Of a stretch of DNA of 64,000 nucleotides, positions 36,991 to 38,064 are shown piece by piece. The number at the start of each line of letters is the position of its first letter. Position 1 is the stretch's first letter. The translations under genes were made by a program, and so were the position numbers. Under the pieces are notes generated by a model. That model was not told where the DNA came from, did no database searches, and saw only the letters and a list, made by a program, of their open reading frames with translations. This DNA comes from Eledone cirrhosa (lineage: Eukaryota), in assembly GCA_964016885.1 (NCBI GenBank), contig OZ024741.1, positions 40,238,001 through 40,302,000 on the forward strand. Reading direction: 5' to 3'.

Positions 36991-38064
36991 AGAGAGAATT
37001 AGTACATCTACCAACATATGTGTACAGATGTACACCCGTGCTAGCAAATATATATGTTATGTCTTAGTACCTTTGTGGTTCTATGCAGGGGGATGCAGAA
37101 CAATTATATGAAAGACGTAAAATAAGAAAATTTAAAAAAATTAAAAATCAACTTACTAAAATTTTCATTCCAACTAATTAGTTTCTGTAAGGGGATAAAT
37201 ATAGTTACATAATATAACTATAGAGAATTCCTTACGTCATCAGGGAGTCTATTCTCAGCTAAGTTCCCAGGCGATGCGCGGACACTAGGAACCCATATAA
37301 AAATAATAATTCAGTGGATGGGATAAAGATAGCGAGGACTAAATTCCAGAGCACTGAAAAAATTCACTGCCTCTGGTCAGTGGCATATTCTAAAGAATCA
37401 ATCACGTGACACTGAGGTTAATCAGTTAGGAGCGGGGTGGTATTATGACAAGAGCCTACTACTACCATGAATCAGCAGTAAATTTTGGCAAGTTTTGCTC
37501 AACAAATAATTTGGAGATAAATATAGAGAATTAGTACATCTACCAACATATGTGTACAGATGTACACCCGTGCTAGCAAATATATATGTTATGTCTTAGT
37601 ACCTTTGTGGTTCTATGCAGGGGGATGCAGAACAATTATATGAAAGACGTAAAATAAGAAAATTATTTGTTGAGCAAAACTTGCCAAAATTTACTGCTGA
37701 TTCATGGTAGTAGTAGGCTCTTGTCATAATACCACCCCGCTCCTAACTGATTAACCTCAGTGTCACGTGATTGATTCTTTAGAATATGCCACTGACCAGA
37801 GGCAGTGAATTTTTTCAGTGCTCTGGAATTTAGTCCTCGCTAGCTTTATCCCATCCACTGAATTATTATTTTTATATGGGTTCCTAGTGTCCGCGCATCG
37901 CCTGGGAACTTAGCTGAGAATAGACTCCCTGATGACGTAAGGAATTCTCTATAGTTATATTATGTAACTATATTTATCCCCTTACAGAAACTAATTAGTT
38001 GGAGTGAAAATTTTAGTAAGTTGATTTTTAATTTTTTTAAATTTTCTTAATTTACGTCTTTCAT
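36991..38064 (-). mobile_element. Hammerhead element: 532-bp partial tandem plus fold-back
   Basis: Direct repeat of about 36992-37132 at 37524-37664; inverted arms 37109-37511/37660-38064. Confidence 0.85.
37924..38005 (+). ncRNA. Type I hammerhead ribozyme (mirror copy on - at 37167-37248)
   Basis: acucc CUGAUGA c-guaagg...ccuuac-a GAAAC uaauua GUU ggagu. Confidence 0.8.

What the first reader, a model, noticed from the sequence alone, without database searches (positions are those of the whole stretch)
36991..38064. 532-nt monomer caught as a greater-than-unit-length copy plus fold-back
Seen: on the minus strand, 37664 to 36992 is one 532-nt unit plus about 140 nt of the next, with one complete hammerhead and no ORF. 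A ~400-bp inverted arm joins through AAATT microhomology at about 37660. Established: retrozymes give greater-than-unit cDNAs from circular or multimeric RNA. Inference: this one insert links the tandem (retrozyme-like) and fold-back forms. The very similar arms imply a recent event.
Basis: partly seen in the sequence, partly recalled or inferred. Interest (0 to 1): 0.75.

Follow-up and report, generated by a model that had tools for sequence, protein, structure and literature searches.

The report
Two-armed retrozyme with Penelope insertion footprint
This is one young copy of a 532-base non-coding repeat with a hammerhead-ribozyme motif and over a thousand copies in the genome, whose back-to-back insertions almost always end at two different fixed points, likely because a Penelope-type jumping gene copies its RNA from both sides of a DNA break rather than by one strand folding back.

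Summary
There is a 532-nt unit plus 140 nt on the minus strand, and a 408-nt inverted arm (4 mismatches) joined through 5 nt of microhomology. Each arm carries a hammerhead motif and no long ORF. The copy is not special: its ribozyme 20-mer occurs 1,083 times, and 70 of 106 mapped insertions are head-to-head. In 58 of 59 with both ends classifiable, one arm stops at unit position ~25 and the other at ~140, mostly in TA/CT runs. This is the Penelope one-sided 'tail', here ~115 nt rather than the published 30-40. Autonomous Hydra-type elements in this genome follow the same rule (7 of 7; 5 of 6) and share a bulged hairpin just past each end. 'Fold-back' is likely wrong: 19 of 58 inserts cannot come from one cDNA folding back, and one insert pairs a retrozyme arm with an autonomous-element arm. 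Best model: two separately primed cDNAs from uncut multimeric or circular RNA, joined by microhomology. Cleavage, circles and expression are untested. The scan reported the same two-armed pattern earlier for other families in this genome.

The parts
36870..36992 (.). Left target flank: (CA)n(TA)n(GA)n microsatellite
   Evidence: Sequence; 153 of 163 fixed ends have a run of 4 or more TA or CT dinucleotides
36993..37664 (-). Long-ended arm: one full 532-nt unit (37664-37133, u1-u532) plus u1-u140 of the next; 3' end at the family's L site
36993..37107 (-). 'Tail' of ~115 nt between the S site (u23-28) and the L site (u138-144), present on this arm only
37078..37101 (-). Bulged hairpin H1 (u32-55) starting ~8 nt past the S site; second copy at 37633-37610; predicted start signal
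   Evidence: (G-C to A-U in 4 of 35 at one pair); weak folding, z -0.97
37167..37248 (-). Type I hammerhead motif of the long arm; predicted cut after 37172; stem I mismatch at 37168
37498..37516 (-). Bulged hairpin H2 (u149-167) starting ~8 nt past the L site; predicted start signal
   Evidence: not the minimum-energy fold, z +0.27
37660..37664 (.). Head-to-head junction, 5-nt microhomology (u1-5 of the long arm, u153-157 of the short arm)
37660..38064 (+). Short-ended arm: u153-u532 plus u1-~u25; 3' end at the family's S site
37924..38005 (+). Type I hammerhead motif of the short arm: stem I 37924-37928/38001-38005, core 37929-37935, stem II 37937-37942/37980-37985 closed by a long hairpin, extra C37936 and A37986, GAAA 37987-37990, palindrome 37991-37998, predicted cut after 38000
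38066..38129 (.). Right target flank: (TA)n

Best explanation
This is a head-to-head insertion of a high-copy, non-coding, hammerhead-bearing ~530-nt repeat, likely made when a Hydra-type Penelope reverse transcriptase-endonuclease primed two separate cDNAs from the two sides of a break in a TA repeat, one at the fixed short site and one at the fixed long site ~115 nt further 3', copied RNA predicted to be uncut across the ribozyme site, and the two copies were likely joined by microhomology. Shown: family size, two fixed 3' ends, variable 5' ends, one-short-one-long pairing, TA targets, junction overlaps, arms more alike than other copies, and the same end rule in autonomous Hydra-type elements. 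Inferred: that a Hydra protein is the helper, that the bulged hairpins H1 and H2 set the two starts, and that two active sites act together. Untested: cleavage, transcription, and the template form (circle about 0.55, read-through multimer about 0.45).
For: 58 of 59 head-to-head inserts with both ends at a fixed site have one S and one L end (binomial p 1e-16 against random pairing). In the position-ordered subset it is 37 of 37, with 8 more having one end elsewhere. One-armed inserts end at S 17 times, at L 17 times, elsewhere twice. 153 of 163 fixed ends abut TA/CT runs. 19 of 58 inserts fit neither L-first nor S-first fold-back; 14 of 37 in the unranked subset. 55 of 58 L arms and 53 of 58 S arms run across the predicted cut site; 15 and 20 cross it twice. 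Arms of one insert share 18.6% of rare alleles against 2.5% between close inserts, and disagree at common polymorphic sites 0.065 against 0.807 per 100 sites. Among 29 young inserts, 18 join with 0-8 nt overlap, 11 of those with 4 nt or more (null 2.2%; overlaps are alignment-based). An autonomous family with the Hydra motifs RWK, DKT and CxCX5C (criteria from PMC8557442) has a 113-nt tail and 7 of 7 S+L pairs. A second family gives 5 of 6. L212 joins a near full-length Hydra-type element ending at its S site head-to-head with a retrozyme arm ending at L. A bulged-hairpin detector fired 7-9 nt past 7 of 9 ends tested across six families (shuffle rates 0.015-0.15). Published: one-sided tail and inverted copy (PMC8557442); two RT start sites and extension of both strands in vitro (PMC11167929).
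Against: There is no significant DNA similarity between the unit and the three autonomous families tested (33 and 49 of 300 shuffles scored as high), so the helper is not identified. Only one clean chimera was found. L214 joins an L end to what looks like an L end, and L211 has a broken end; both may be rearranged neighbours. H1 and H2 fold weakly (z -0.97 and +0.27), and the detector was written after seeing the motif and fires at 63 of 532 unit positions. Allele sharing between arms could come from gene conversion. This window's copy is itself compatible with fold-back. The hammerhead has a family-wide extra A before GAAA (that position pairs in 8 of 153 distinct sequences), and its minimum-energy monomer fold is not the catalytic one.
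Confidence: 0.78

Rival explanations
1. One cDNA folds back on itself at a microhomology and copies its own strand (first reader's fold-back; akin to the self-priming hypothesis for Penelope inverted repeats).
For: The window copy fits: short arm 408 nt inside long arm 680 nt. 39 of 58 inserts are geometrically compatible. Arms share rare alleles. PMC3846280 argues for self-priming from junction palindromes.
Against: 19 of 58 inserts have an arm holding sequence that the other arm could not have supplied. It does not explain why the second arm stops at the other fixed site. L212 has arms from two different elements.
Confidence: 0.1
2. Same two-primer insertion, but the template is always a linear read-through multimer and no circular RNA takes part; long arrays grow later at the DNA level.
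For: The 9-unit array L145 is mosaic, with private alleles shared by subsets of units, as local amplification gives. PMC11167929 found unprocessed RNA to be the dominant substrate in vitro. The extra A may weaken cleavage.
Against: 35 of 116 arms cross the cut site twice, while arrays of three or more units are few. Units within an insert are nearly homogeneous. The hammerhead core is conserved with compensatory stem II changes. None of this excludes a homogeneous source array.
Confidence: 0.4
3. The pieces are truncated ends (pseudo-LTRs) of an ORF-bearing Penelope element of their own, not an independent non-autonomous family.
For: The architecture is that of PLE ends. 106 insertions are a sample of more than 1,000 motif copies.
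Against: Upstream of the hammerhead the copies return to the unit's own start at 519-540 nt. The 5' flanks of 36 one-armed inserts share no element body. PLE ORFs next to inserts belong to different families, 40-60% identical to each other.
Confidence: 0.07
4. Assembly or library artefact, or a purely DNA-level duplication-inversion.
For: No read-level check was obtained; the arms are 99% alike.
Against: 70 dispersed inserts obey one end rule with arms about 2% diverged. The arms here differ at 4 sites.
Confidence: 0.03

Closest known systems
Metazoan non-LTR retrozymes (Cervera and de la Pena 2020, PMC7229834, passages read; Li, Clavereau and Pollet 2026, 10.64898/2026.07.22.740005, parts 1-3 of 5 read)
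   Same: Non-coding tandem unit with one type I hammerhead, low GC, dimers to multimers, proposed Penelope dependence.
   Different: Unit 519-540 nt (typical ~300; Li et al. range 51-972). Most copies are dispersed head-to-head inserts with two fixed ends. 'inverted' has 0 hits in PMC7229834; 'tail' and 'head-to-head' have 0 hits in the preprint. Circles are shown there and untested here.
EN+ Penelope-like insertion architecture (Craig et al. 2021, PMC8557442, passages and section 11 read; Arkhipova et al. 2013, PMC3846280, passages read)
   Same: 5' truncation, partial tandems, inverted 5'-truncated copy, tail at one end, (TA)n targets.
   Different: No ORF. The tail is ~115 nt, not 30-40. 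It is described there as 'often' or 'optionally' at one end; here it is 58 of 59.
Poseidon PAc of Anolis (Frangieh et al. 2024, PMC11167929, parts 1-2 of 4 read)
   Same: Two fixed 3' ends matching two internal RT start sites; AT-rich target; both strands extended; predicted dimer.
   Different: The PAc sites are adjacent and inside the ORF. The passages read report no start-site difference between strands and do not assign one site to each end of an insert.
Hydra-clade PLEs (PMC8557442)
   Same: (TA)n targets and hammerheads. Hydra-type families in this genome have 90-113 nt tails, S+L pairing and a similar bulged hairpin.
   Different: They encode RT-EN; no significant nucleotide similarity to this unit was found.

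Membership tests
Non-LTR retrozyme | Type I hammerhead in each tandem unit | tested here: met
   stem II pair 3 is U-A 113, A-U 34, C-G 3 of 153 distinct sequences
Non-LTR retrozyme | No coding capacity, GC under 45% | tested here: met
   No ORF of 150 aa or more; GC 0.364 for 36001-38000, flanks included
Non-LTR retrozyme | Head-to-tail dimers to multimers at a fixed period | tested here: met
   Spacings of 519-540 nt; array of 9 units in L145
Non-LTR retrozyme | Self-cleavage of the RNA | not testable with these tools
   Motif only; extra A before GAAA; monomer fold not catalytic
Non-LTR retrozyme | Expressed as linear and circular monomer RNA | not testable with these tools
   No RNA holder listed
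PLE-type hammerhead (PMC4209133) | Extra base between 9 and 10.1, G10.1-C11.1 pair, palindromic helix III | tested here: met
   u429; G430-C478 in 144 of 153; 8-nt palindrome
PLE-type hammerhead (PMC4209133) | C11.1 followed directly by GAAA (canonical core, from general knowledge) | tested here: not met
   A479 intervenes in 223 of 224 pieces
EN+ PLE insertion footprint | Fixed 3' ends, variable 5' ends, inverted copy head-to-head | tested here: met
   70 head-to-head, 0 tail-to-tail of 106
EN+ PLE insertion footprint | Tail at one end | tested here: met
   58 of 59
EN+ PLE insertion footprint | Tail length 30-40 bp | tested here: not met
   ~115 nt; 113 and ~90 nt in two autonomous families
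EN+ PLE insertion footprint | Target-site duplication | tested here: inconclusive
   Flanks are microsatellites; a duplication cannot be read
Autonomous PLE | Own RT plus GIY-YIG ORF | tested here: not met
Dependent of a Hydra-clade helper | Shared terminal sequence or signal with a Hydra element | tested here: inconclusive
   No DNA homology; shared hairpin pattern; one clean chimera

The most novel reading that the evidence does not exclude
Hydra-type Penelope proteins insert as an obligately asymmetric dimer: one RT starts before hairpin H1 and the other before H2, each can hold a different RNA, and a ~530-nt hammerhead circle parasitises this by carrying only the two hairpins, so the Penelope 'tail' is the fixed footprint of two-ended priming and animal retrozyme arrays are rolling-circle cDNAs.
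Probability: 0.35. Interest if true: 0.72.

Novelty: new variant of a known kind. Interest (0 to 1): 0.45.

Why it matters
How Penelope elements make head-to-head inserts with a one-sided tail, and whether animal retrozymes are really moved by them, are named as open questions in PMC8557442, PMC11167929 and the 2026 preprint. A short, ORF-less, high-copy RNA that obeys a 58-of-59 end rule gives a minimal template and two exact predicted start sites for an in-vitro test. The single window copy is an ordinary member of its family.

Tried and rejected
Rfam found no hammerhead; its miRNA hits are hairpin and TA artefacts. No RNA holder listed. Read or contig support for the junction was not obtained. 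L1-style twin priming on one linear RNA predicts L arms stopping near the S site: 3 of 58 do, about the chance level. A hard stop at the ribozyme cut: 11 of 116 5' ends fall in u489-510 (expected 4.8), but only 2 of 74 in the unranked subset (expected 3.1), so rejected. RNA-editing scars (lead from e1-8803865): shared changes were A>G 6 and T>C 13, no sense-strand A>G excess. Helper by homology: none for three families. Pfam gave no family for the two PLE-like ORFs of the window. The within-versus-nearest-copy distance test was uninformative, because a near-majority copy always sits at half the distance; it was replaced. A look-up of earlier findings by sequence and near this place was empty. 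Paper searches; the last (Penelope + non-autonomous + head-to-head + hammerhead) gave 0 papers. Subscription papers and Repbase were not searchable, and bioRxiv supplements were not seen, so the end rule may be in print there.

Full report
Observation. The minus strand holds a 532-nt unit (37664-37133; unit coordinates u1-u532) and u1-u140 of a second unit, identical to the first over 140 nt. The plus strand holds a 408-nt inverted arm (37660-38067) with 4 mismatches. The arms overlap by 5 nt at 37660-37664. Both arms carry a type I hammerhead motif; the predicted cut is after u493 (38000 on +, 37172 on -). The minus-arm copy has A at u497 where 226 of 235 pieces have G, which breaks a stem I pair. 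No ORF of 150 aa or more lies inside. Both flanks are microsatellites.

Family. The own genome (3.0 Gb) gave 3,166 candidates, 40 scored, full units 96-99% identical. An exact 20-mer of the ribozyme occurs 1,083 times, control 0. A pattern excluding the common base after the core finds 348 more, from sister subfamilies. Among 153 distinct hammerhead sequences, stems I and II pair in 142-152. One stem II pair is U-A 113, A-U 34, C-G 3, which is compensatory change. The motif has the extra base, G-C pair and palindromic helix III described for Penelope hammerheads (PMC4209133, passages), plus an extra A before GAAA in 223 of 224 pieces, so activity cannot be assumed.

Architecture. I mapped 120 loci (36 picked by score, 84 the first pattern hits along contig C1), dropped 15 duplicates and got 106 insertions: 70 head-to-head, 36 one-armed, 0 tail-to-tail. 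3' ends fall at S (u23-28) or L (u138-144), ~115 nt apart. Of 70 head-to-head inserts, 58 are S+L, 1 is S+S, and 11 have one end elsewhere. In the position-ordered subset 37 of 45 are S+L and none is same-type. 153 of 163 fixed ends abut TA or CT runs. 5' ends are spread over the unit. Of 29 young inserts, 18 join with 0-8 nt overlap (11 with 4 or more; null 2.2%), 8 have an inserted piece and 3 have a long ambiguous overlap. So the window copy is a typical, young member.

Against fold-back. If one cDNA folded back, one arm would lie within the other. 30 of 58 fit L-first, 9 fit S-first and 19 fit neither at 15 nt tolerance; 14 of 37 in the unranked subset. The window copy fits L-first, so it cannot decide alone. 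L212 joins a near full-length PLE, ending at its own short site, head-to-head with a retrozyme arm ending at L. Two further PLE junctions are less clean: L214 looks L+L and carries a 5' inversion; L211 has lost its outer end.

Template. 108 of 116 arms cross the predicted cut site and 35 cross it twice, so the RNA copied was uncut there: a multimer or a circle. Arms and tandem units of one insert share rare alleles (18.6% and 23.3% against 2.5%) and rarely differ at common polymorphic sites (0.065 and 0.048 against 0.807 per 100 sites in young copies, L145 left out). This fits one RNA or one source locus, but also gene conversion. L145, with 9 units, is mosaic for private alleles, which points to later local amplification. 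Circle versus multimer stays open. No editing signal was seen.

Helper. A very young autonomous family (78 matches scored, 98-99% protein identity) has RWK, DKT, CxCX5C, CxxC and CxH, the Hydra features listed in PMC8557442 section 11. Its tail is 113 nt and 7 of 7 distinct head-to-head inserts seen are S+L (L249's far end ran off the stretch). The family of L212 has a ~90-nt tail and 5 of 6 S+L. All three PLEs at chimeric junctions have CxCX5C. None of three families tested is significantly similar to the unit in DNA. Following earlier scan notes (e1-8671399, e1-8673755), I looked for a bulged hairpin past each end. A detector fired 7-9 nt past 7 of 9 ends, including both ends of this unit. 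The two misses show the pattern by eye but fall outside the detector's limits. Shuffle rates were 0.015-0.15. H1 has one compensatory pair in 4 of 35; both hairpins fold weakly. This is suggestive, not proof.

Model. Shown: family, ends, pairing rule, targets, junctions. Inferred: a Hydra-type RT-EN nicks both strands of a TA run, primes one cDNA at S and one at L, both run to variable points on uncut RNA, and their ends are joined by microhomology. This matches two RT start sites and extension of both strands in PMC11167929. Untested: cleavage, expression, circles.

Comparison and novelty. Retrozymes (PMC7229834, passages; 2026 preprint, parts 1-3 of 5) and the tandem/inverted/tail architecture of PLEs (PMC8557442, PMC3846280, passages) are known. 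In what I read and searched I did not find retrozymes described as head-to-head inserts with a PLE tail, a tail over 40 nt, or a near-absolute one-short-one-long rule. Subscription papers, Repbase and preprint supplements were not seen. Earlier scan notes report the two-armed pattern for 310-, 422- and 467-nt families, and a 520-600-nt family that may include this one; they call the genome a cephalopod, which I did not test. Verdict: a real feature, a new variant of a known kind, interest 0.45.

Noticed in passing
window 20739-23440 (+); loci L061-L090: 5'-truncated copy of a very young Hydra-type PLE family (773-aa ORF in L064), ending at its short site; 113-nt tail.
   Followed up: partly
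window 38131-38305: A separate ~170-nt head-to-head mini-insert of another family directly beside the finding, with one short and one long end; the same sequence ends the PLE in L214.
   Followed up: partly
window ~19397-20000 and ~55700-56181: Two more head-to-head inserts with paired hammerhead motifs (19589 -/19909 +; 55978 -/56074 +), each with one short and one longer end.
   Followed up: partly
window 12237-13700 (-); loci L151-L180: Second PLE-like RT plus GIY-YIG ORF (88 matches scored, 92-97% identity); no Pfam hit and no similarity to the unit.
   Followed up: partly
L212 3870-4300; loci L217-L246: The end motif of this autonomous family reads CAGAAGA where the hammerhead core has CUGANGA, fixed across nearly all 30 copies; the L214 family has GAGAAGA. 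These may be variant or dead ribozymes.
   Followed up: no
L145 (G000:C4:181134521-181140081): Nine-unit array with a rough period-3 similarity pattern (units 2, 5, 8 differ by 0.2-1.0%; 3 and 6 by 0.6%) and private alleles.
   Followed up: partly
L204-L206 (G000:C1 ~152.494-152.500 Mb): Long tandem array of a sister subfamily, about 80% identical to the window unit.
   Followed up: no
long-site ends, e.g. window 36985-36992: Many L ends run into (CT)n before (TA)n, likely slippage at the terminal CTCT; older copies with TTAT there go straight into TA.
   Followed up: partly
window 2408-5794, 25036-29901, 30961-35257: LINE-type RT ORFs, some with an upstream ORF; the first hits Pfam RVT_1.
   Followed up: no
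window 36217-36353, 38632-38768, 41385-41521: Three copies of a SINE-like repeat; a weak tRNA-like Rfam hit lies at 60094-60164.
   Followed up: no
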